DNA of 64,000 bases from a bacterium. GTDB taxonomy: Bacteria > Patescibacteriota > Minisyncoccia > 1-14-0-10-42-19. The first letter of the stretch is position 1. Each line of letters opens with the position of its first letter. The DNA is taken from NCBI GenBank assembly GCA_030690215.1, contig JAUYHD010000029.1, positions 14,568 through 78,567 of the forward strand. The letters are read 5' to 3'. This document shows, one piece after another, positions 10,338-40,592 of the stretch. The position numbers and the translations under genes were made by a program. The notes beneath the pieces are model-generated. The model was not told the DNA's origin. It was given only the letters and a program-made list of their open reading frames with translations, and did no database searches.

Positions 10338-12764
10338 TTATTGGTATCGTCTCGTAATTTCTTCTTCTATTTCTTTTTTGGGACGGCCGTATTTTTGCGA
10401 TGACAACTCTTTAATTGCTTCTGCGGCAACCTCGTTGCTTTCTTTTGGAGGAAGTGTCCTAAGGTTAAATGGTTTTACCGCTTGGCCATCTATAAGCATT
10501 TTAATATACGCCTGAAAATTCTCTATGTTTGTCAAATCATGCGCAGAGAATATCGGCTCAAATTGCTTCTCTACGATTTCCGCATCCTCGCGTCCGATAC
10601 GAAACGAAACTATAGTTCCTACATTTCCAAATACGGATTTTCGGATTTCATCAGACAATTGCCCGATAAACTGATGCGCCATGATAAGATTTAATTTATA
10701 TTTACGCGCTTCAGAAAGAATGGTTGCGATAGAGGGCGTTGTGATGCTCTGAAATTCATCAAGATACAAAAAGAAGTCGCGGCGCTTTTCCTGGCTTGCT
10801 TCACTCGCGCGGGAGAACGCAGCCATAAGAATCTTCCCGACAATCACTAATCCCAAAAGCGCGGAATTCGTCTCCCCCACCCTCCCCTTAGAAAGATTCA
10901 CAAGAAGTATCTTGCCGTTATCCATTACATCCCGCATCTGAAAAGCAGATTGTTGTTGCGCGATAATAGGACGCACGATATCGTTTGAAAGGAATGTGTC
11001 AAATTTAGATGTAATATACGGAATCATGTTTTGGAGCGCGTGCTCTCCTCCTGTTTTCTCCGCGATGTCTTTCCAAAATACATTCACTAAAGGATTTTTT
11101 GAACGGGAAAGTTTATATTCACGAAATGCTTTATCCGAAAGCACGCGGATAATTTCTAAAAGCGTGTTGCCGGATGCGGGGTCTTCTAATACTAAATGCG
11201 TTGCATTCCTAAAATACTGTTCAAACATTGGTCCGCCGGCAAGCTCCATGTTATACAACTTATTGAAAATGGCGAGCAACTCATCAACAACAAACGTTTT
11301 TTGTTCGGGATAGCGCTCATCATATTCAAGAAAATTAAGCCCCATAGGCATCGCGGTATCTCCCGGGTCAAAATAGATAACGTCTCCGACGCGCTTTTCA
11401 GGAATTTGCCCCAATATATCGCTTACCATATCGCCATGCGGATCTATCACGCAAAGACCCTGCCCCGCCTCAATGTCCTGACGGATCATGTGCTTCATGA
11501 ATTCTGATTTTCCGGTTCCGGTTTGTCCAATGATATATGCATGGCGCCTCCGGTCGTCAAGCTTCATACGCACATCGCGACTTTCTCCGCGAAATGTATT
11601 CACCCCCAACCGAATCCCCTCCGTGGGAACATTCGCGGGCGCTGGAGCATCCTTTGACTTGAGCGTTTTTAATTTTGGGGCAGAGACAACACCGTACGGA
11701 AAATGAAAAATAGTCGTAAGCTCACGCGCATTCAAATATACTCCGTGCGCCCCCGAAAATATACGAAATGAGAATCGGTAAAAAAAATCTTGCGCATGCG
11801 ATTTTTTAATGTCTCGCGCAACAAATTGGTTTCCCTGCGGCTCTGAAAATTGTAAAAACGCCGAGGAAAGCTCTTGTATAATGCCTTCGGCTTCTTCTTC
11901 CGTGGGGGCTGACGCAATAAGACGAATGTTTACCTTAAAAATCGGGGAATTCAACTTCTCATTCACCAACTTTATCACTTCTTCATTCACGCGATGTTTT
12001 TGTTCTTCTTTTTTTTGCTTTGCGGCTGGAGACGGCCCGGAAAATGTATGCATTGTTTTTGAAAATTCGTCCATCCATCCTTTTGTAGCACTCGCAGAGA
12101 GCGAATTGCCGCCAAGAAGCATTTCGCGCGCCCGTTTAATTTTTTCTGTTGCACGCGATTCTGCGGTCTCAACAATAATCTGAAGAGCTGCTCCTTCCCC
12201 CTTTTTCTTTAATTTGGAAAACGCATTCGCGATGACCTCCAGCGGGTCTGCTTCTAATTTATCGTAGGTGCGGATGGGAAGCGCAAAATTTCGCGCCGTC
12301 GTGATAATCGCGCCCTTGCTTGCGCCCTCCGCATTAAAAATATTGTAATCATGTTCGGAGACTTCTAATCGTGCATGCGGGAATAGACTTTCCAACTGCT
12401 TTTCAAAAATACGGCTATGCTGTTTTTGTACGCCGACATAAAATGTTATTTCTTCCCCCACATCGGGTAATGCAAGTTCCAATACATAAAAATTTTTTTC
12501 TGTGCCCCACGCTGTTTTTGTTTCGCTTATCGCGCTCATCCCGCTATAAAATTGTTCCATGATGGAAATAAAATTTTTAAATCCGCCCTCGCCAATCGGA
12601 GATTCTTCTTCTGAAAATGTCACTTCATACAGAATAAATTGGAGAGAACGCTCAAATTGTTTGCGCGTACGCCTATGATTTACAAAAAACAATACGGCCG
12701 CAAAAACAATAAGGCCTGCGATACTGTATGGAATATATGCGGTAAAACCGTATATGAGCGCCAT
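10338..12764 (-). CDS. VirD4/TraG/TrwB-like coupling-protein ATPase (FtsK-HerA superfamily) with novel ~360 aa N-terminal domain
   Basis: one N-terminal TM; Walker A IGQTGTGKS, Walker B FFLYLDEFQ, C-terminal AHQxxxQL...GN...F motif typical of T4SS coupling proteins. Confidence 0.65.
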   Translation of the reverse strand: MALIYGFTAYIPYSIAGLIVFAAVLFFVNHRRTRKQFERSLQFILYEVTFSEEESPIGEGGFKNFISIMEQFYSGMSAISETKTAWGTEKNFYVLELALPDVGEEITFYVGVQKQHSRIFEKQLESLFPHARLEVSEHDYNIFNAEGASKGAIITTARNFALPIRTYDKLEADPLEVIANAFSKLKKKGEGAALQIIVETAESRATEKIKRAREMLLGGNSLSASATKGWMDEFSKTMHTFSGPSPAAKQKKEEQKHRVNEEVIKLVNEKLNSPIFKVNIRLIASAPTEEEAEGIIQELSSAFLQFSEPQGNQFVARDIKKSHAQDFFYRFSFRIFSGAHGVYLNARELTTIFHFPYGVVSAPKLKTLKSKDAPAPANVPTEGIRLGVNTFRGESRDVRMKLDDRRRHAYIIGQTGTGKSEFMKHMIRQDIEAGQGLCVIDPHGDMVSDILGQIPEKRVGDVIYFDPGDTAMPMGLNFLEYDERYPEQKTFVVDELLAIFNKLYNMELAGGPMFEQYFRNATHLVLEDPASGNTLLEIIRVLSDKAFREYKLSRSKNPLVNVFWKDIAEKTGGEHALQNMIPYITSKFDTFLSNDIVRPIIAQQQSAFQMRDVMDNGKILLVNLSKGRVGETNSALLGLVIVGKILMAAFSRASEASQEKRRDFFLYLDEFQSITTPSIATILSEARKYKLNLIMAHQFIGQLSDEIRKSVFGNVGTIVSFRIGREDAEIVEKQFEPIFSAHDLTNIENFQAYIKMLIDGQAVKPFNLRTLPPKESNEVAAEAIKELSSQKYGRPKKEIEEEITRRYQ

Positions 12765-14830: not shown

Positions 14831-16681
14831 ATGGTACATAAACGCCCCGCAAACACTATAGCTCTTATCTTGCTTGCGCTATTCTTCGTTCTCATGCTTT
14901 TTTCGGCACTTCCGGAATCGGCAATCATGGACGAACTCGCCCACATCCCTGCATCCTACTCGTATGTAGCGAAACAGGATTATCGTCTCAACCCCGAACA
15001 TCCTCCGCTTGCAAAAGATCTTGCGGGCATCCCGCTTCTTTTTCTCAACCTTAATTTTCCAATCGATGTCTCCGCGTGGACTACCGATATAAACGGACAA
15101 TGGACAATGGGGTCTATCTTTTTATATGAGGCAGAAAATAATCCTGACTCTATTCTTTTTTGGGCGCGTTTCCCGCTCATGCTTTTAGCGCTTCTTTTCG
15201 GGTGGCTTTTGTATCGCTGGGCATCAGGCGCGTATGGGGGAAAGGTCGGGCTTCTTTCGTTATTCTTTTTTACGACATCGCCAACTATTATCGCGCATGC
15301 GCGCTATGTGACAACCGATCTTGCGGCGGCCTTTGCGTTCTTTATAGGGCTCGCCTCTTTTTTTACCTATCTTCTCTCTCCCTCCAAAAAAACGCTTGCT
15401 CTTGCGGGTATCGCATTCGGTATTGCGCAACTTCTTAAATTTTCGCTTATTCTTCTCATACCCATATATGTTGTCTTGGGAACACTATGGGTGTTCTTGT
15501 TCCATCTTGATCATATGCGCGCATTGCCCTCCTTCTCAAAACGACTTTTTCATTTTCTACACCACGAAATAAAACTCATTGGCAATCTTGTTCTCATTGG
15601 TCTCATCGGCGTAATCATCATATATGCTGTATACGCATTCCATGTTTGGAATTATCCCGAAGACATGCAAATTCGAGACATGACATATAACTTAGAAACC
15701 GTGCGCTTCCAGCCTATCGCGGAGACCCTCATCACTCTCTCCGACTTCCCCGTGCTTCGCCCGCTTACGCAATACGCGCACGGTCTTTTAATGGTTATTA
15801 ACCGAGGCACACACGGAAACACTACATACTTTTTAGGAGAGGTTACCAATAACGGGTGGTTCCATTATTTCCCAACAGCATATCTTCTTAAAGAACAGCT
15901 TGCTCTACACATACTTACGCTTTTAGCCATCATTCTTTTTCTTACAGCAATCGTCAGAAGTCATGAAAAAACAATCTTCTCTCTTCTTGAGTGGATGCGG
16001 GACAATTTCGTGATCACCGGCAGCATATTTTTTATTGTTGTATATTGGGCTAGCTCTGTCGCAAGCCCGCTTAACATAGGGGTGCGCCATGTTTTACCTA
16101 CATTCCCGTTTATTTTTCTCATCATATCCCGTGAAATTATCCGCTGGACGCATCACGTCACGTTTACCGATCCCCGAACGCTTAAAGAATGGCTCATCTC
16201 TCTCTACGAACTTGCGATAAAGCGCATCCCTAAATTCATTTTTATTGCAGCCACACTTGTCTGGATGGGGATTACGACACTTCTTGCGTTCCCCCATTAT
16301 CTTCCTTACTACAATGTACTTGGCGGCGGGACAGAGCATGGTTATCAATATATTACCGATTCAAATTATGATTGGGGGCAAGATTTAAAACGCCTCAAAA
16401 CATTTGTTGACGAAAATAGTATTGAGCATATCCGGCTTAATTACTTCGGCGGCGGATCGCCCCGCTATTATTTGGGGAATACATACGAAGAATGGTATTC
16501 GGCGAAAGGAGAGCCTGAAGAAGGATGGTTTGCGGTATCCGCAACGCTCCGGCAAGGATCGTGGGGAACGCCCATCCGCGGATGGGAAACAAAACCCGAA
16601 GACAGCTATAGCTGGCTTCGCGATAAAGAACCGGTCGCGCGTGCGGGGTATTCAATATTTATCTATAATCTTGCCCCGTAG
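14831..16681 (+). CDS. GT-C fold glycosyltransferase (phospholipid carrier-dependent, PMT_2-like)
   Basis: polytopic; ALPESAIMDELAHIPASYSY / HPPLAKDLAGIPL loop motifs typical of GT-C mannosyltransferase-like enzymes. Confidence 0.7.
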   Translation: MVHKRPANTIALILLALFFVLMLFSALPESAIMDELAHIPASYSYVAKQDYRLNPEHPPLAKDLAGIPLLFLNLNFPIDVSAWTTDINGQWTMGSIFLYEAENNPDSILFWARFPLMLLALLFGWLLYRWASGAYGGKVGLLSLFFFTTSPTIIAHARYVTTDLAAAFAFFIGLASFFTYLLSPSKKTLALAGIAFGIAQLLKFSLILLIPIYVVLGTLWVFLFHLDHMRALPSFSKRLFHFLHHEIKLIGNLVLIGLIGVIIIYAVYAFHVWNYPEDMQIRDMTYNLETVRFQPIAETLITLSDFPVLRPLTQYAHGLLMVINRGTHGNTTYFLGEVTNNGWFHYFPTAYLLKEQLALHILTLLAIILFLTAIVRSHEKTIFSLLEWMRDNFVITGSIFFIVVYWASSVASPLNIGVRHVLPTFPFIFLIISREIIRWTHHVTFTDPRTLKEWLISLYELAIKRIPKFIFIAATLVWMGITTLLAFPHYLPYYNVLGGGTEHGYQYITDSNYDWGQDLKRLKTFVDENSIEHIRLNYFGGGSPRYYLGNTYEEWYSAKGEPEEGWFAVSATLRQGSWGTPIRGWETKPEDSYSWLRDKEPVARAGYSIFIYNLAP

Positions 16682-16872
16682 AGCAATATCGCATAATAAG
16701 CTATGCGTTCGCCGCTGGAGGTCAAAAACTATCCCATGTTCTTACTTTTTTGCAAATGGTATTTTGTATAAGAGCTTATAAGAACACGCTATGCGATATT
16801 GTCTTACGGGGTTTGACAAAAACTAAGAAAAGACATACCCTATAAAAAGAATGTTCCTAAAAGGAGTCAATA

Positions 16873-17061
16873 ATGAATATATCTGGCTTTTTCCTGGTCG
16901 GGATCCAATGGTTTGCTATTCTACTCACTGCAGCACTAATTTTGTTTGGTGTCGCCATACGTCTTTTCCCGCACCTTCGTTATAAAAAATGGGTGCACAG
17001 CGTCATTGAGTGTATCGGCAATACAGAGATTCCGGAAAAATATAAAACGTACAAAAAGTAA
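16873..17061 (+). CDS. small hydrophobic peptide P1 (62 aa, 1 TM + basic tail)
   Basis: AAGGAG RBS 7 nt upstream of ATG. Confidence 0.4.
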   Translation: MNISGFFLVGIQWFAILLTAALILFGVAIRLFPHLRYKKWVHSVIECIGNTEIPEKYKTYKK

Positions 17062-17107
17062 CGCAGTTCCTATAATGACCAGAAACCAAAAAGGAGGTTC
17101 TTTAACA

Positions 17108-17311
17108 ATGGCGCATATTTTTATATTTTTATCCGGTCTTAGTTTTGGATGCTTTGTTACAGTAATGAAAATTAACTTAATAATTGATTCTTCACTCAAT
17201 GAATTGGGTATGCTACTTTTTGCGGGTGTCGGAGTTATGGCATTACTGTTTGGTATTCAGGGAATTAACAAAGATAAAAGAAACCCTAAGCCCCCAAAAA
17301 CGGAAAAATAA
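17108..17311 (+). CDS. small hydrophobic peptide P2 (67 aa, 2 TM + basic tail)
   Basis: AAAAGGAGGTT RBS; internal start of ORF 16946..17311. Confidence 0.4.
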   Translation: MAHIFIFLSGLSFGCFVTVMKINLIIDSSLNELGMLLFAGVGVMALLFGIQGINKDKRNPKPPKTEK

Positions 17312-17421
17312 GATATAAAATCTGTGCCTATTTTTACTTCTATTCGATATCGTCTAATAGAGTTCGACGAAGAATAAATAAATTACTATGATGTAAAAAA
17401 TAAAAAGGAGGTTTTCCAAAA

Positions 17422-17544
17422 ATGGTAGCATTTCTAGATACATTTATGCCCTGGGTGGCCGTTATTGCCGGCATTATTCTAATTTTTATGTTCAGTCTCC
17501 CTATTCTTGCCAAGCTCTTTCCGAAACTTCTCCGAAGAAGATGA
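17422..17544 (+). CDS. small hydrophobic peptide P3 (40 aa, 1 TM + KLLRRR tail)
   Basis: AAAAGGAGGTT RBS nearly identical to P2's; below ORF-track length cutoff. Confidence 0.35.
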   Translation: MVAFLDTFMPWVAVIAGIILIFMFSLPILAKLFPKLLRRR

Positions 17545-17630
17545 TTCTACTCGCTTTTTAAATCCATCGTTGTCGGCATAGGAAACCGCGAAATCTCAGA
17601 AGAAGAAAAGACGAAAAAATAAGATACAAA

Positions 17631-17660
17631 AACCCCCTAACAACAGGGGTTTTTATTTTT
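17631..17660 (+). terminator. rho-independent terminator after P1-P3
   Basis: aacccccTaacaacaGggggtt + tttttattttt. Confidence 0.7.
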
Positions 17661-17669
17661 CTTTCCCTT

Positions 17670-17699
17670 CTGGATACGCTCAACCTGGATACGCTCAAC
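17670..17699. repeat. 15-bp perfect tandem direct repeat ctggatacgctcaac x2
   Basis: 17670-17684 and 17685-17699. Confidence 0.8.
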
Positions 17700-17716
17700 T
17701 CTTAAATACCCCCAAC

Positions 17717-17756
17717 AAATCAACGAAGAACTACGATCGTTGTTCTTTGTTGATTT
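17717..17756. promoter_or_regulatory. 40-bp near-perfect palindrome (operator-like), core AGAACTACGATCGTTGTTCT
   Basis: 36/40 self-complementary; second copy of core at 18503-18522. Confidence 0.6.
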
Positions 17757-17903
17757 ATGATTCTTCCCGCTCTTACTAAGAATCACACCTCTCTCCCCAA
17801 GGAACGACGGTACAAGGCCGGGGGTTTCATTGCCACAGATAGAAACAAAAATATGGGATACGGTCTTGAAAAACTTGAGACTGAAAGACTTGCTTTTAGT
17901 GTC

Positions 17904-18482
17904 TCATCCAAGCTTAAAATATTTCTTAAGATGAAATTCATTATCAAGCGAATCGGCAATAATAAAACGGGTGTAGGGACGTGCATAAAAAAATTCAATT
18001 ACAAAATCAACTTCATCCTGACATTCAAATGGATGTACAAATACACTTTTTTGATATTCAAAAAATCCGGCTCGTATCAATGCGCGCCGCAAGGCGTCCC
18101 GAATCACACGTGATTTCTCAGGTATATCAAATAACACTATGCGCCACTTCCCATCCCATTTTTCCATGGGAGCAACACGGATGGCATCAATTTTATATCT
18201 GAGCGCTTTTTCTTCCCCCTTTTGCGTAAGCACGAGAGTATATGTTCCGTCTTTATTACGTACCGTTTTGATTAGCCGAGAATTATAAAGACTTTTAATG
18301 GCGCGATGAAGAGCTTTTTGATCAACTTCCTTCCACCAATGAGCAACACCCCTTACAATGTTAAAATATTTTTTTGGGTTATGATTCAAGCCCAACAACG
18401 CTCCTCCTAAAAGCAAAATAAGAACTTTTTGCGAATTTGGCCCAAGATTAAAACCTCGTTTTGTTTTTTTGCGATATTCCAT
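17904..18482 (-). CDS. winged-HTH + Cas2/VapD-fold (PaaX-like architecture) putative transcriptional regulator
   Basis: C-terminal KWRIVLFDIPEKSRVIRDALRRALIRAGFFEYQKSVFV matches Cas2/PaaX_C pattern; N-terminal wHTH-like; ORF track uses GTG at 18500, first ATG at 18482. Confidence 0.5.
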   Translation of the reverse strand: MEYRKKTKRGFNLGPNSQKVLILLLGGALLGLNHNPKKYFNIVRGVAHWWKEVDQKALHRAIKSLYNSRLIKTVRNKDGTYTLVLTQKGEEKALRYKIDAIRVAPMEKWDGKWRIVLFDIPEKSRVIRDALRRALIRAGFFEYQKSVFVHPFECQDEVDFVIEFFYARPYTRFIIADSLDNEFHLKKYFKLG

Positions 18483-18502
18483 AATTAAATAGAAATACAC
18501 GA

Positions 18503-18522
18503 AGAACTACGATCGTTGTTCT
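18503..18522. promoter_or_regulatory. 20-bp palindromic operator AGAACTACGATCGTTGTTCT between regulator start and divergent promoters
   Basis: 18/20 self-complementary; identical to 17727-17746. Confidence 0.6.
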
Positions 18523-18548
18523 ATGTGGATTTTGCTCATTATATCATT

Positions 18549-18557
18549 TTATTGCTA
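18549..18557 (-). promoter_or_regulatory. extended -10 (TGaTATAAT) for the regulator gene
   Basis: reverse complement of ctcattatatca; operator lies between it and the start codon. Confidence 0.45.
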
Positions 18558-18578
18558 TTTAACTGTACGGGGGCGGGG

Positions 18579-18607
18579 TTGACAAAGAATAAATATTTTG
18601 ATATAAT
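18579..18607 (+). promoter_or_regulatory. consensus sigma70-type promoter TTGACA-N17-TGnTATAAT driving P4
   Basis: TTGACA 18579-18584, TG 18599-18600, TATAAT 18602-18607; GAGGAGG RBS 18624-18630. Confidence 0.75.
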
Positions 18608-18638
18608 GTAGAAAACTAACAAAGAGGAGGAGTCTTAA

Positions 18639-18794
18639 ATGCGGCTTGCTTATATGTTTTTTGCGGGTTTGGGCACTGGAACAATAGCTACGCTTTTATT
18701 CGCACCAGAACATGCCTATGGCATCGGGCCCGGTATCATTATTAGCGGGACAGTTGTTCTTTATGTTCTTTATCGGGGTATCACTAGAAAATAA
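18639..18794 (+). CDS. small hydrophobic peptide P4 (51 aa, 2 TM)
   Basis: perfect promoter + strong RBS; below ORF-track cutoff. Confidence 0.45.
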   Translation: MRLAYMFFAGLGTGTIATLLFAPEHAYGIGPGIIISGTVVLYVLYRGITRK

Positions 18795-18904
18795 TAGAAG
18801 GGGCTTGCTTATTACTAAGCGGGCCTCTTTTTATTTTTAGCAAAAATCCCTCAAGTTAAATTTTTAGGATGAAATTACTTACATGCTGATATATAATACA
18901 ATCA

Positions 18905-19867
18905 ATGGCAAAAATCGTTGTTGGAGTACTGCGCGGAGGCCCTTCCTCTGAATATGACATTTCGCTCAAAACTGGCGAAAATGTTTTGCGTCATCTTCCC
19001 CAAGAAAAATACAAACCCTTGGATATTTTTATTTCAAAAGCAGGCGAATGGCACTTAAAAGGCCTTGTCCGCCCGCCCGAAAAAATACTACAGCATATTG
19101 ATGTCGCCTTTAACGCTATGCACGGTGAATATGGAGAAGATGGAACAGTACAAAAAATTTTCCGTGATCACGGGATCCCCCACACAGGATCGGAGGTTAT
19201 GGCATCCCGCTTTACCATAAAAAAAGATACAGCAAAAAATCTACTGGAACGCGCGGGATTAAATGTACTCCCAGGAATAACCGTGCGACCCGATGACGAT
19301 ACACAAACGACACTCACGCTCGTGCATAAAAAAATGGCGCCTCCGTGGGTAGTTAAACCGAACGGAAAAGGATCGTCCGTGGGAGTTTCGATAGTAAGGA
19401 CTTTGCCGAATTTGGAAAAAGCAATCTCTGAAGTATTCCGCATTGACTCCTTAGTACTCGTAGAAAAATATATAAAAGGCAGGGAGGCAACATGCGGTGT
19501 CCTTGAAAATTTCCGGAATGAAAAATATTATGCGCTTCCGGTTGTGGAGATAATCCCGCCACAAGGAAAGTTTTTTGACTATCAGTCAAAATATGACGGC
19601 TCAACCAAAGAGGTTTGCCCCGGAAGATTCAGCAAACGCGAAGCAACACACCTCCAGGACGCAGCAATACGTGCGCATAAAGCGCTTGGATGCAGGCATT
19701 ATTCTCGAACCGATATGATTCTTGCAAACGATACGGTATGGGTTCTTGAAACAAACACCCTCCCGGGGCTTACTTCAGAATCTCTACTCCCTAAATCCGC
19801 AGAAGCGATAGGGCTTTCTTTCCCGGGCTTATTAGACCACTTGGTCGCTCTCGCACTTAAGAAATAA
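18905..19867 (+). CDS. ddl: D-alanine--D-alanine ligase
   Basis: ATP-grasp Ddl N-terminus MAKIVVGVLRGGPSSEYDISL and C-terminal motifs. Confidence 0.9.
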   Translation: MAKIVVGVLRGGPSSEYDISLKTGENVLRHLPQEKYKPLDIFISKAGEWHLKGLVRPPEKILQHIDVAFNAMHGEYGEDGTVQKIFRDHGIPHTGSEVMASRFTIKKDTAKNLLERAGLNVLPGITVRPDDDTQTTLTLVHKKMAPPWVVKPNGKGSSVGVSIVRTLPNLEKAISEVFRIDSLVLVEKYIKGREATCGVLENFRNEKYYALPVVEIIPPQGKFFDYQSKYDGSTKEVCPGRFSKREATHLQDAAIRAHKALGCRHYSRTDMILANDTVWVLETNTLPGLTSESLLPKSAEAIGLSFPGLLDHLVALALKK

Positions 19868-21128
19868 TAGCGCCCCCAAGCACCTGCCTGCCGGCAGGCA
19901 GGTTTCCCTCCTCCATTGAATAGAAAACTATTGATTGGCCGGGTGTTACTGCGCGTTGCGGATCTTTAAATTGAATTAAGAATTTTGAATTAGGAATTAA
20001 GGTTTCTTCCGTTATTCTTGATTCATAATTCATAATTCGTGCTACTTGTAGCGGTTGGCGATATCGTATTCGCACCTCACATTCTAAAGGCAATTCCGGA
20101 ACAACTCCGGATATCCAATGCGCGTCGCGAACGCGCAATTCCGTTTTAAATAATGCCTCTTCATATGGACCTTCGGCAACCGTAATCGTATTGATCGAAA
20201 CATCTTTATCGGTTACATAATATGGGATGCCCCCACCCACCCCTATGCCGTGACGCTGGCCGATGGTGTAAAATTCTGCCCCTTCATGCGTGCCTATTTC
20301 TTTTCCGCCGGTAGTCAGAATTTTCCCGGAACGCTTCGGCAATACTTCCTGCATAAAAGAACGGAAATCGATATTACCAACAAAACAAAGTCCCTGGGAA
20401 TCTTTTTTTGCATGTGTCGGAAGTCCAAACTTTTTTGCCATAGCGCGGACCTCTCTTTTTTCATATCCCCCAATCGGAAATAATGCGTGCTTCAATTGGT
20501 CTTGCGTTAGCGTCCATAAAAAATAACTTTGATCTTTGTTTATATCTCTCGCAACATGTAGCATATAGCGTGCGGCAGATTTCTCATTTTGAGTTTTGAA
20601 CTTTGCGCTTTGAGCTTTCCTTACATAATGTCCAGTTGCAATATAGTCTGCCCCCAAACTACGCGCCTTATTTAAAAAAACTCCGAATTTAATTTCTTTG
20701 TTGCACATGACATCTGGATTTGGCGTAAGCCCCGCTTTATATTCACGCACCATATAATCAAACACTGATGCGCGGTATTCTTTTTCGAGATCAAATACAT
20801 AAAATGGAATATGCAATTTTTCTGCGACTCGTCGGGCATCCTCCGCGTCTTGTGCGGATGTACAATACGCCCCCTCTGACCAGCACTTCATATAGGCGCC
20901 GATTACTTCGTATTCCCCACTTTGAACCAACAAAGCAGCCGCAACGGACGAATCAACCCCGCCGGACATCGCTACGAAGACCTTTTTACCCCGAGTAGTA
21001 TTGAGGGGCTTGCCCCGAGTGCTATCGGGGGGCTTGCCCCGAGCCCCGCCAGAAGCGGGATCGAGGGGCTTGCCCCGAGCCCCGCCAGAAGCGGGATCGA
21101 GGGGTTTGTTGTTTTGATTAATTGACAT
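19857..21128 (-). CDS. mnmA: tRNA-specific 2-thiouridylase MnmA with Pro/Gly-rich repeat N-terminal extension
   Basis: PP-loop KVFVAMSGGVDSSVAA, catalytic Cys regions; N-terminal ~47 aa encoded by tandem repeats. Confidence 0.88.
   Translation of the reverse strand: MSINQNNKPLDPASGGARGKPLDPASGGARGKPPDSTRGKPLNTTRGKKVFVAMSGGVDSSVAAALLVQSGEYEVIGAYMKCWSEGAYCTSAQDAEDARRVAEKLHIPFYVFDLEKEYRASVFDYMVREYKAGLTPNPDVMCNKEIKFGVFLNKARSLGADYIATGHYVRKAQSAKFKTQNEKSAARYMLHVARDINKDQSYFLWTLTQDQLKHALFPIGGYEKREVRAMAKKFGLPTHAKKDSQGLCFVGNIDFRSFMQEVLPKRSGKILTTGGKEIGTHEGAEFYTIGQRHGIGVGGGIPYYVTDKDVSINTITVAEGPYEEALFKTELRVRDAHWISGVVPELPLECEVRIRYRQPLQVARIMNYESRITEETLIPNSKFLIQFKDPQRAVTPGQSIVFYSMEEGNLPAGRQVLGGAIIS
20990..21112. 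repeat. GC-rich tandem repeat, 36-bp unit x2 full plus partial copies, in-frame in mnmA 5' end
   Basis: gccccgccagaagcgggatcgaggggcttgccccga at 21041-21076 and 21077-21112; partial copies 21001-21040. Confidence 0.85.
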
Positions 21129-40145: not shown

Positions 40146-40592
40146 TTATTGCGTTCGTATAATTCCTTCCCCGTCAATAAAATATGTTTCTATTTCCAGT
40201 TGAGGAAATTTTTTCTTAAGAAATGCTTTTGCTTTCTTGTGTTCTTCACGATGAAACGCAAATTCTTTTTCTTCGCTATTGTGGAACCGCGCAATGCCTC
40301 CATATGCTCCGCAATGGGTATGCGAAAAAAGCATAACGCGTTTAACGTGGTGAAGTTGTATTGATTTTTCAATCTCGCGAACATAAAAATCCCGATCGCT
40401 TTCAAATTCAGGAGATGCAAATATTTTCGCGCCGCCCGCAGGAGATTTTGGGTCTATGTGTTCGTACCCCAAGCTCGCGATAAAGTGCTTGAACGACTTC
40501 CAAAAACGATCGTCAACACAGCGTACCGTAAACGCATCCGCGGAATAATGCCCAAGATCGCTTTTTTCTTTAAATACGTATTCTTTTTGCAT
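40146..40592 (-). CDS. beta-class carbonic anhydrase-like small protein
   Basis: CxDxR (RCVDDR) and HxxCG (HTHCGAYGG) with ~56 aa spacing. Confidence 0.4.
   Translation of the reverse strand: MQKEYVFKEKSDLGHYSADAFTVRCVDDRFWKSFKHFIASLGYEHIDPKSPAGGAKIFASPEFESDRDFYVREIEKSIQLHHVKRVMLFSHTHCGAYGGIARFHNSEEKEFAFHREEHKKAKAFLKKKFPQLEIETYFIDGEGIIRTQ

What the first reader, a model, noticed from the sequence alone, without database searches (positions are those of the whole stretch)
16873..18800. Palindrome-bracketed wHTH/Cas2-fold regulator divergent from a consensus-promoter-driven hydrophobic micro-protein, next to a 3-gene micro-protein operon
Four tiny ORFs sit in 1.9 kb: P1 62 aa, P2 67 aa, P3 40 aa and P4 51 aa. 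Each has 1-2 predicted TM helices and a basic C-tail, and each has a near-ideal SD (AAAAGGAGG). P4 is driven by a textbook TTGACA-N17-TGnTATAAT promoter, the best promoter in the window. Between P3 and P4 on the opposite strand is a ~190 aa protein with an N-terminal wHTH-like region and a C-terminal segment fitting the Cas2/VapD/PaaX_C pattern (VLFDIPEK...LRRAL..AGF..YQKSVFV). That gene is bracketed by two copies of a 20-bp near-perfect palindrome, AGAACTACGATCGTTGTTCT. One copy (18503-18522) lies between its own extended -10 and start codon, the classic autorepression geometry, and ~55 bp from the P4 promoter. The other (17727-17746) sits inside a 40-bp palindrome just after a 15-bp tandem direct repeat. 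The layout resembles a regulator plus membrane-toxin or bacteriocin-like peptide module, or a small mobile cassette. I do not recognise it as a described system.
Basis: partly seen in the sequence, partly recalled or inferred. Interest (0 to 1): 0.72.

Follow-up and report, generated by a model that had tools for sequence, protein, structure and literature searches.

The report
Minimal PaaX-like repressor between twin palindromes
A small DNA-binding protein (winged helix plus Cas2-like domain) found across the ultra-small Patescibacteria has its gene flanked on both sides by copies of one ~40-bp palindrome, probably its own binding site for self-repression; the tiny membrane-protein genes beside it in this genome are local orphans and not part of that unit.

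Summary

Comparative data change the interpretation. The protein belongs to a large Patescibacteria-wide family of about 185 aa, which lacks PaaX's ligand domain and is often labelled 'Cas2'. In 60 of 68 related loci (control 1 of 68) the gene has a lineage-specific 36-44-bp palindrome both just before the start and just after the stop.

The site has three parts: a CGATCG-type centre, a poorly symmetric zone, and symmetric outer arms. Its overall length matches E. coli PaaX's TGATTC-N27-GAATCA. In relatives the promoter-proximal arm carries the gene's own -10 or -35, usually in a leaderless layout. This fits autorepression.

Neighbouring genes vary and are housekeeping genes. P1-P4 have no homologues anywhere, so the regulator-plus-peptide-toxin module is not supported.

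The role of the downstream copy (looping, roadblock or terminator) is inferred. I found no published description. I rate it a new variant of a known kind, of moderate-to-high interest.

The parts
17904..18482 (-). Gene for a 192-aa minimal PaaX-like protein. It has an N-terminal winged-helix region (about residues 15-100) and a Cas2-like PaaX_M domain (107-192). It has no PaaX_C domain. It ends in TGA.
18493..18532 (.). Upstream copy of the 40-bp palindrome, the putative operator O1 (core 18503-18522). It lies between the gene's extended -10 and its ATG, at about +2 to +41 of the predicted transcript.
   Evidence: The position is equivalent in relatives, with the centre 20-121 nt before the ATG and clusters at 26 and 47-50 nt.
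17717..17756 (.). Downstream copy of the 40-bp palindrome, the putative operator O2 (core 17727-17746). Its centre is 167 nt after the stop, an outlier against a family median of about 40 nt.
18538..18546 (-). Extended -10 (TGATATAAT) of the regulator gene. No Shine-Dalgarno sequence precedes the ATG.
   Evidence: Read from the sequence. It is the best-scoring -10 in the scan.
18579..18607 (+). Perfect TTGACA-17-TGnTATAAT promoter of P4, divergent from the regulator. It is about 47 bp from the edge of O1, which is centred near -100 relative to the P4 start site.
18639..18794 (+). P4, a 51-aa hydrophobic orphan ORF with an SD, followed by a terminator-like hairpin at 18796-18831.
   Evidence: No homologues.
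16873..17061 (+). P1, a 62-aa hydrophobic orphan ORF.
   Evidence: No homologues. Paralogous to P3 plus its read-through tail.
17108..17311 (+). P2, a 67-aa hydrophobic orphan ORF. Its SD region and 3' tail are repeated at P3.
   Evidence: (repeats D3 and D4).
17422..17622 (+). P3 is 40 aa up to an in-frame TGA at 17542-17544. The same frame then continues for 25 codons that are homologous to the C-terminus of P1. An intrinsic terminator-like hairpin follows at 17634-17649.
   Evidence: (E 1.4e-5). (z 11.6, with the TGA aligned to Trp40 of P1).
17670..17699 (.). A 15-bp perfect tandem repeat, CTGGATACGCTCAAC x2, next to O2. Its role is unknown.
   Evidence: (repeat D9).

Best explanation
The 17904-18482(-) gene encodes a 'minimal PaaX': a winged-helix DNA-binding domain fused to the Cas2-like dimerisation domain of PaaX, without PaaX's C-terminal ligand domain.

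I propose that it acts as a dimer and binds a ~40-bp palindrome. The palindrome has outer half-sites about 12-18 bp from the dyad and a CGATCG-type centre. This is the same overall length as E. coli PaaX's TGATTC-N27-GAATCA.

One copy sits on the gene's own promoter or 5' end, so the protein would shut off its own transcription by excluding or blocking RNA polymerase. In this window the site covers roughly +2 to +41 after a TGnTATAAT -10. In relatives the promoter-proximal arm itself contains the -10 or the -35, and the mRNA is leaderless.

The second, matching copy lies just behind the gene. It is most simply a second binding site that cooperates with the first, for example through a repression loop of about 0.7 kb enclosing the gene. 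It may also act as a roadblock or bidirectional terminator that insulates the gene from its neighbours.

Shown here: the fold and family, the twin sites, their family-wide conservation, and their register with promoter elements.

Inferred: binding, repression, looping, and whether other targets exist elsewhere in the genome.

The micro-ORFs P1-P4 are lineage-specific additions around this unit and not partners of it.
For: Family and fold:
- PF20803 at 1.8e-21.
- PaaX is an autorepressor that occludes RNA polymerase, and its operator is TGATTC(N27)GAATCA (PMC9493321).

Twin sites:
- In 60 of 68 non-redundant related loci, the 200 nt upstream and the 300 nt downstream of the gene share a match of at least 23/30. 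The mismatched-locus control gives 1 of 68. The medians are 26 and 19.
- The sites are gene-specific. There are only two copies in this 64-kb window and only two in the 20-kb locus L085.

Site anatomy:
- Dyad symmetry is high at positions 1-4 (0.75-0.97), low at positions 5-8 (0.45-0.73), and high at positions 9-17 (0.77-0.95).

Promoter register:
- In 27 of 60 loci the best -10 ends 5-9 nt before the ATG, which indicates a leaderless mRNA.
- In 9 loci TGnTATAAT starts exactly at +14, inside the promoter-proximal arm (centre to ATG = 26).
- In about 12 loci a TTGACA-like -35 coincides with that arm (centre to ATG = 47-50).

Outer arms and evolution:
- Outer arms follow protein clades, for example TTAGCA with the ...ERAINSLYxSHL... 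clade and xxGCAA/xxACAA with the ...SLNRAIxSLYESKLV... clade.
- L015 and L020 share synteny and 67% protein identity, yet their palindromes differ. This points to a resident gene whose two sites evolve together.
Against: No binding data exist. The N-terminal domain is modelled with only moderate confidence (pLDDT 62-79), and PF07848 does not hit it.

A repressor whose only detectable sites flank its own gene has no obvious target. Most downstream neighbours are convergent (37 against 28 co-directional), so the downstream copy is usually not another gene's operator.

Inner arms differ between closely related proteins, yet each palindrome stays perfect for up to 58-60 bp. In L089 the two copies differ from each other while each stays symmetric. 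A hairpin or cruciform, or palindrome-correcting replication errors, explain this more easily than base readout does.

Asymmetric centres are mostly in direct orientation, about 18 loci against 4. A symmetric dimer does not require that.

Many polar residues of the Cas2-like domain are invariant (D119, E157, E163, R172, D180). This hints at more than a dimerisation scaffold.
Confidence: 0.58

Rival explanations
1. The palindromes act as folded nucleic acid: DNA cruciforms, single-stranded DNA hairpins or RNA hairpins. The protein recognises or cuts the folded form through its Cas2-like domain, reading the conserved centre as a loop and the arms as a stem. The unit would then be a structure-sensing or self-processing element, for example a supercoiling sensor or mRNA-level control, and not a classical operator.
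For: Perfect palindromes reach 58-60 bp, and the inner arms vary freely between close relatives while staying complementary. Centres tolerate asymmetry, as a loop would (CGACCG, CGATAG, CTGGAG). Downstream copies show an excess of G-T over A-C mismatches on the sense strand, 83 against 51, as an RNA hairpin would. The Asp of the Cas2 'YDI' motif (D119) and further acidic residues are invariant. Cas2-family models hit residues 113-153.
Against: Upstream copies show no G-T bias (56 against 51). Positions 5-8 are poorly paired, which is unexpected for a selected stem. In the leaderless architectures the -10 lies inside or after the palindrome, so the upstream copy is not transcribed as a whole. 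Some loci carry the two copies in inverted orientation (L032, L049, L074, L011). Replication template-switching can make palindromes perfect without any selection.
Confidence: 0.17
2. The two palindromes are simply bidirectional intrinsic terminators or insulators at each end of the gene. Gene conversion between nearby hairpins keeps them alike, and the protein does not bind them.
For: Downstream copies lie 7-70 nt after the stop, where terminators sit. Many have A-runs before and T-runs after the stem (L080, L031, L041, L085). The G-T bias in downstream copies fits. Third copies lie in gene-end intergenic regions, as in L040 after secA.
Against: It does not explain why only this gene family, in 60 of 68 loci across Patescibacteria, carries matched hairpins at both ends, while the other terminators in the window are unrelated. 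It does not explain why the centre and outer arms are conserved across the family and follow protein clades. It does not explain why the upstream copy sits in a fixed register with the gene's own -10 or -35.
Confidence: 0.1
3. The unit is, or descends from, a mobile or selfish cassette. The gene would have been inserted into a palindromic target that was duplicated, as a CRISPR repeat is duplicated at spacer integration or a long target-site duplication is made. Alternatively it could be excised by recombination between the two repeats.
For: A repeat-gene-repeat layout with mostly direct orientation. The genomic context varies, and 87 of 135 flanking proteins are singletons. The protein is related to Cas2, a component of an integrase complex.
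Against: No Cas1, transposase or recombinase lies nearby. The window has no CRISPR array. Each locus holds one copy. The same synteny occurs within clades while the palindromes have diverged. 2.9 million viral contigs hold no relative. Some loci have inverted copies. Promoter elements are built into the upstream copy only.
Confidence: 0.07
4. One reading: the regulator controls the adjacent hydrophobic micro-proteins P1-P4 as a membrane-toxin or bacteriocin-like module.
For: P4 is divergently transcribed from the only perfect promoter in the window. P1-P3 have strong SDs and TM-like segments. P1 and P3 are real paralogues, so they are probably coding. The P3 and P4 promoter regions are related (repeat D1).
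Against: 83 related loci have no homologue of P1-P4, and 5.8 billion proteins have none of P1 or P4. The nearest relatives of the regulator lack such neighbours. O1 is centred about 100 bp upstream of the P4 start site, outside its core promoter. O2 lies after the P1-P3 terminator, between convergent units. Toxin, defence and phage libraries give no hit.
Confidence: 0.06

Closest known systems
PaaX, repressor of phenylacetate catabolism (E. coli W, PDB 8a39; TIGR02277/COG3327)
   Different: This protein has no C-terminal PaaX_C ligand domain and is 192 aa against about 305-316 aa. It scores 38.5 bits against a TIGR02277 cut-off of 264.55. No paa genes lie nearby. It is restricted to Patescibacteria-type genomes. 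Its gene is bracketed by two copies of the site. The site has a conserved CGATCG-type centre and is palindromic along most of its length. The mRNA layout is leaderless in many members.
Cas2 of CRISPR-Cas adaptation modules (TIGR01573, PF09827)
   Same: The ferredoxin-like fold matches solved Cas2 structures (8ia4, 6jhz, 5zyf, 3exc; Foldseek probability about 1.0). The motif LFDIPE...R...QxSVF parallels the Cas2 beta1/alpha1/beta2 region, with the Asp conserved. Public annotation pipelines name several family members 'CRISPR-associated endonuclease Cas2'.
   Different: The domain is fused to a winged helix. Only the first half of the Cas2 models aligns (positions 2-43 of 96). No cas1, other cas genes or CRISPR array lies in the window or the inspected loci. 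'Cas2' is therefore a misnomer for its function.
Repressors with auxiliary operators and DNA looping (LacI O1/O2, GalR OE/OI, DeoR); textbook knowledge
   Same: There are two copies of one operator a few hundred bp apart, one at the promoter and one downstream. This arrangement would allow cooperative binding.
   Different: Here the second site lies beyond the 3' end of the regulator's own gene, so the loop would enclose the regulator gene itself. No separate target operon is evident. Oligomerisation beyond a dimer has not been tested.
REPtrons (a RAYT gene flanked by its cognate REP palindromes); my own knowledge
   Same: A gene is flanked by two copies of a palindromic element whose sequence varies between genomes together with the protein.
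   Different: The protein has no HUH/Tyr transposase fold. The palindromes are not dispersed: two copies in 64 kb here and two in 20 kb of L085.

Membership tests
PaaX family (TIGR02277 / COG3327) | Central Cas2-like domain PF20803 (PaaX_M) | tested here: met
   76.5 bits against a cut-off of 24, residues 107-180, E 1.8e-21.
PaaX family (TIGR02277 / COG3327) | N-terminal PaaX winged-helix domain (PF07848) | tested here: inconclusive
   No PF07848 hit, and only weak wHTH hits (HTH_27 at 0.11). The TIGR02277 alignment starts at residue 84. The model aligns to PaaX 8a39 over 96-147 residues, but the N-terminal pLDDT is only 62-79. The sequence has the typical LxxLYxSxLI...DGTxTLxLTxxG helix-wing signature.
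PaaX family (TIGR02277 / COG3327) | C-terminal PaaX_C domain that binds the inducer phenylacetyl-CoA | tested here: not met
   The protein ends 12 residues after the PaaX_M match, and PF08223 does not hit. The whole family is 180-200 aa long.
PaaX family (TIGR02277 / COG3327) | Equivalog score and linkage to paa catabolic genes | tested here: not met
   38.5 bits against a cut-off of 264.55. Neighbours are Ddl, PMT-type glycosyltransferases and T4SS-like genes. Other loci have PheS, GyrB, RecG, RsmA and Tmk.
PaaX family (TIGR02277 / COG3327) | Binds a ~39-bp split palindrome overlapping its own promoter | tested here: inconclusive
   Sites of matching length and promoter overlap are present and conserved. 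Binding itself cannot be tested with these tools.
CRISPR-associated Cas2 | Cas2 ferredoxin-like fold and sequence model | tested here: met
   TIGR01573 at 26.0 bits against a cut-off of 24.5, covering model positions 2-43 of 96 only. Foldseek to Cas2 structures at probability 1.0. PADLOC Cas2 models at 2e-6.
CRISPR-associated Cas2 | Encoded next to cas1 and a CRISPR array, as a stand-alone protein of about 90-100 aa | tested here: not met
   No tandem array in 64 kb. No Cas1 family among called neighbours. The domain is fused to about 105 N-terminal residues.
Type I toxin or bacteriocin-like micro-protein module | Conserved small hydrophobic peptide genetically linked to the regulator | tested here: not met
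   No homologues of P1-P4 in 83 related loci. P1 and P4 are unique among 5.8e9 proteins. Pfam, PADLOC and PHROGs give no hits above noise.
Insertion sequence / REPtron-type mobile unit | Transposase or recombinase, multiple dispersed copies, and identical copies in different contexts | tested here: not met
   No such enzyme is present. There are two palindrome copies per 20-64 kb. Synteny is kept within clades. No viral relatives were found. Whole-genome copy number could not be tested.

The most novel reading that the evidence does not exclude
The twin-palindrome plus wHTH-Cas2-like gene may be an autonomous, Patescibacteria-wide element and not an ordinary self-repressor. In this reading the Cas2-like domain is functional, either as a nuclease or as a binder of folded DNA, and acts on the extruded or hairpin form of the flanking palindromes. 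It could, for example, sense supercoiling or replication, or cut at the CGATCG-type centre. Such an element would be a living intermediate between Cas2-type nucleic-acid enzymes and PaaX-type transcription factors.
Probability: 0.15. Interest if true: 0.85.

Novelty: new variant of a known kind. Interest (0 to 1): 0.62.

Why it matters
Patescibacteria make up a large share of bacterial diversity, have tiny genomes and have very few characterised regulators. This family is widespread: 462 clusters at 50% identity with E<=1e-30, and at least 578 metagenomic loci. It is routinely mislabelled 'Cas2', which inflates counts of CRISPR components.

The family also comes with a built-in, easily testable prediction: a defined ~40-bp site on both sides of its own gene. 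It offers a minimal model for how PaaX-type repressors read long split palindromes. It also bears on how a Cas2 fold was recruited into transcription factors.

The leaderless promoter-in-operator layouts give concrete promoter models for organisms in which almost none have been mapped.

Tried and rejected
- Replication-terminus or Tus/RTP-like fork trap. GC skew is uniformly negative across the window, with no switch at the locus.
- Rfam families. There is nothing above noise between 16000 and 19500.
- Dispersed REP-like repeats. No further copies exist in 64 kb, and the third ACGATCGT at 40506 is inside a gene and has no arms.
- A conserved partner gene. Clustering of flanking proteins gives 87 singletons of 135, and the largest cluster has 4 members.
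- PDB search by sequence. No hit.
- Phage origin. No relatives in the viral contigs and no PHROG hit.
- Strict direct-repeat or target-site-duplication reading. Both orientations occur.
- My first palindrome-only detector missed imperfect sites. I replaced it with a repeat-based comparison that has a control.
- Literature. Searches for PaaX with Cas2, Cas2-like or Patescibacteria terms found nothing on this family.
Full report
**1. Checking the observation**

- The 20-mer AGAACTACGATCGTTGTTCT occurs exactly twice, at 17727-17746 and 18503-18522. Shuffles give none.
- The repeat extends to 40 nt, at 17717-17756 and 18493-18532, with 90% identity. Each copy is itself a near-perfect palindrome.
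- Relaxed patterns find no further copy in the 64-kb window.
- The promoter TTGACA-17-TGnTATAAT at 18579-18607 is the only perfect consensus promoter in the window, against 0.02 expected.
- P1 (16873-17061), P2 (17108-17311), P3 (17422-17544) and P4 (18639-18794) are open reading frames. Each has an AAGGAG/GGAGG Shine-Dalgarno sequence and hydrophobic segments.
- Terminator-like hairpins follow P3 and P4.
- On the minus strand the regulator gene (17904-18482) is preceded by TGATATAAT (18546-18538). This ends 5 nt before the 40-nt palindrome. The gene has no Shine-Dalgarno sequence.

**2. The protein**

- Pfam gives PF20803 (PaaX central Cas2-like domain) at 1.8e-21 for residues 107-180.
- NCBIfam gives a partial PaaX match at 38.5 bits, far below the 264.55 cut-off. 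It also gives a cas2 match just above its cut-off, 26.0 against 24.5 bits, covering only model positions 2-43 of 96.
- An AlphaFold2 model built from 67 homologues has mean pLDDT 84.7. The C-terminal domain exceeds 92 and the N-terminal region is 62-79.
- Foldseek matches the C-terminal domain to solved Cas2 proteins at probability about 1.0, and matches the chain to PaaX of E. coli W (8a39) and to Rv0674.
- The protein ends right after the Cas2-like domain, so PaaX's ligand-binding C-terminal domain is absent.

**3. The family**

- Homologues are numerous and uniform in length, about 184 aa. They come from Patescibacteria MAGs. NCBI's pipeline names some of them 'CRISPR-associated endonuclease Cas2' and JGI names some 'PaaX'.
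- A profile search of 1.84 billion representative proteins finds 462 clusters at E<=1e-30, nearly all 180-200 aa long.
- A metagenome scan found at least 578 encoding loci, of which I kept 80.
- Three further loci came from reference genomes of Niyogibacteria and Saccharibacteria.
- 2.9 million viral contigs contain no relative.
- The window has no CRISPR array, and no cas1 was seen in any inspected neighbourhood.

**4. The twin palindromes are a family trait**

I took 68 non-redundant loci with at least 150 nt on both sides of the gene. For each I compared the 200 nt upstream with the 300 nt downstream.

- The best gapless 30-nt match is at least 23/30 in 60 loci. When the downstream region comes from a random other locus, this happens in 1 of 68.
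- The match is at least 24/30 in 53 loci, against 0 controls. The medians are 26 and 19.
- The upstream centre lies 20-121 nt before the ATG, with clusters at 26 and 47-50 nt. The downstream centre mostly lies 7-70 nt after the stop. This window, at 167 nt, is an outlier.
- The element is a 36-44-bp palindrome, and in some loci up to 58-60 bp. Its centre is CGATCG, CGACCG/CGGTCG, CGATAG, CTATAG or CTGGAG. Its arms differ between lineages but match within a locus.
- In the 20-kb locus L085 an identical 44-bp palindrome occurs only at the two gene flanks.
- The nearest relatives of the window protein (66-75% identity) show the same layout with their own arms.

**5. Anatomy of the site**

- Anchored on the dyad, symmetry is high at positions 1-4 (0.75-0.97), low at positions 5-8 (0.45-0.73) and high again at positions 9-17 (0.77-0.95). 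The site therefore has three parts: a centre and two outer half-sites.
- Outer arms follow protein clades, for example TTAGCA..., xxGCAA/xxACAA and TACCAC. In this window they are ATCAAC/ATCCAC. Inner arms drift even between close relatives.
- The overall length resembles the E. coli PaaX operator TGATTC(N27)GAATCA. PaaX represses its own promoter by excluding RNA polymerase (PMC9493321).

**6. Register with the promoter**

- In 27 of 60 loci the best -10 hexamer ends 5-9 nt before the ATG, which implies a leaderless mRNA.
- In nine loci (centre to ATG = 26) a perfect or near-perfect TGnTATAAT begins at +14, inside the promoter-proximal arm.
- In about twelve loci (centre to ATG = 47-50) a TTGACA-like -35 coincides with that arm, and the -10 ends 6-8 nt before the ATG.
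- In the nine centre-to-ATG-26 loci only the upstream copy carries the TGnTATAAT -10; the downstream copies read TGCTAAAT or weaker.
- This window uses a third layout, in which the -10 lies just upstream and the site occupies the first ~40 transcribed bases.

All three layouts place the site where a bound protein would block RNA polymerase. This is the main argument for autorepression. It remains an inference.

**7. The downstream copy**

- Downstream neighbours are convergent in 37 loci and co-directional in 28. Flanking genes are unrelated housekeeping genes, with 87 of 135 being singletons. The second copy is therefore generally not another gene's operator.
- It sits where a terminator would be, and it often has A/T runs on either side. 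On the sense strand its mismatches favour G-T over A-C, 83 against 51. Upstream copies do not show this (56 against 51).
- I conclude that it is probably a second binding site that also serves as a terminator or roadblock, possibly closing a loop of about 0.7 kb. I cannot prove this.

**8. Resident or mobile?**

- Within clades, synteny is kept: NUDIX-gene-Tmk in one clade and PcrA/UvrD-gene-RsmA in another.
- L015 and L020 share that second context at 67% protein identity, yet they have different palindromes. The two copies therefore evolve together at a fixed place.
- Orientation of asymmetric centres is mostly direct, about 18 loci, but inverted in about 4.
- GC skew shows no origin or terminus at this locus.
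- These points argue against a mobile cassette, though a distant origin by site duplication cannot be excluded.

**9. The micro-proteins**

- P1-P4 have no homologue in 83 related loci. P1 and P4 have none among 5.8 billion proteins.
- Pfam, PADLOC and PHROGs give nothing above noise.
- P1 and P3 are true paralogues, but only if P3 is read through its TGA (E 1.4e-5; z 11.6).
- The SD and tail regions of P2 and P3, and the promoter regions of P3 and P4, are repeated. These look like locally duplicated, lineage-specific small genes.
- O1 is centred about 100 bp from the P4 start site, and O2 lies behind the P1-P3 terminator. Control of these genes by the regulator is therefore not indicated.

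**10. Comparison and verdict**

- The protein works most like PaaX but is not an equivalog. It lacks the ligand domain and the paa context.
- It has a Cas2 fold but is not a CRISPR Cas2.
- I found no publication describing this short family or its twin palindromes.
- I rate it a new variant of a known kind.
- My confidence is about 0.58 that it is a self-repressing DNA-binding protein acting on the flanking palindromes.
- A minority possibility, about 0.15, is that the Cas2-like domain acts on folded palindromes. That would be considerably more novel.

Noticed in passing
window 17542-17544 and 17904-17906; whole window: TGA is almost absent as a stop. Among 37 ORFs of at least 200 aa the stops are TAA 31, TAG 6 and TGA 0. 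Related Patescibacteria loci use TGA for 15% of stops, giving P=0.0026. The only credible genes with a TGA are P3, where it aligns with Trp40 of paralogue P1 and homology continues for 25 codons, and the regulator, whose frame stays open for another 89 codons through O2. The window has no release-factor gene or tRNA gene. This may be TGA avoidance, read-through or recoding.
   Followed up: partly
window 16873-17622: P1, P2 and P3 form a tandem set of small-gene units. The SD regions at 17083-17111 and 17397-17425, and the 3' tails at 17296-17320 and 17607-17631, are repeated. The P3 upstream region at 17366-17400 is 80% identical to the P4 promoter region at 18581-18615.
   Followed up: partly
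window 17670-17903: A perfect 15-bp tandem repeat (CTGGATACGCTCAAC x2) abuts O2. The spacer between the regulator's stop and O2 is about 157 bp, much longer than in relatives (median about 40 nt). It may be an insertion. It has no Rfam match.
   Followed up: no
window 16674-16695 / 16790-16811: A 22-nt inverted repeat, 86% complementary with 94 nt between the arms, lies between the end of the PMT-type glycosyltransferase gene and the start of P1. Its role is unknown.
   Followed up: no
window 20989-21108: A 36-bp (and 24-bp) tandem repeat sits at the 5' end of the 423-aa gene at 19857-21128(-). It encodes repeated KPLDPASGGARG units ahead of what looks, from the sequence only, like a tRNA thiolase (MnmA-like).
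   Followed up: no
window 10338-12764 (-) and neighbours: An 808-aa protein with T4SS coupling-protein and DUF87/TrwB domains lies next to small unannotated genes and a GtrA-like gene. This is a type IV secretion or competence-like cluster a few kb from the finding.
   Followed up: no
P0038, P0092, P0104, P0109: Public annotation names members of this wHTH-PaaX_M family 'CRISPR-associated endonuclease Cas2', because TIGR01573 is passed marginally. This is a likely systematic misannotation in Patescibacteria genomes.
   Followed up: partly
L048 about 3861; L080 about 1919; L040 5247; L035 5021: Extra palindromes of the same design lie near some loci. Those in L048 and L080 have different arms, and the L080 one lies in a divergent promoter region in front of a methionine-aminopeptidase-like gene. 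Those in L040 (after secA) and L035 have matching arms. They may be further targets, or sites for a paralogue.
   Followed up: partly
L088-L091 and many short contigs: Contigs carrying this gene often end within 100-350 bp of it. The twin 40-bp repeats may break short-read assemblies, which would lead to under-reporting of the layout.
   Followed up: no
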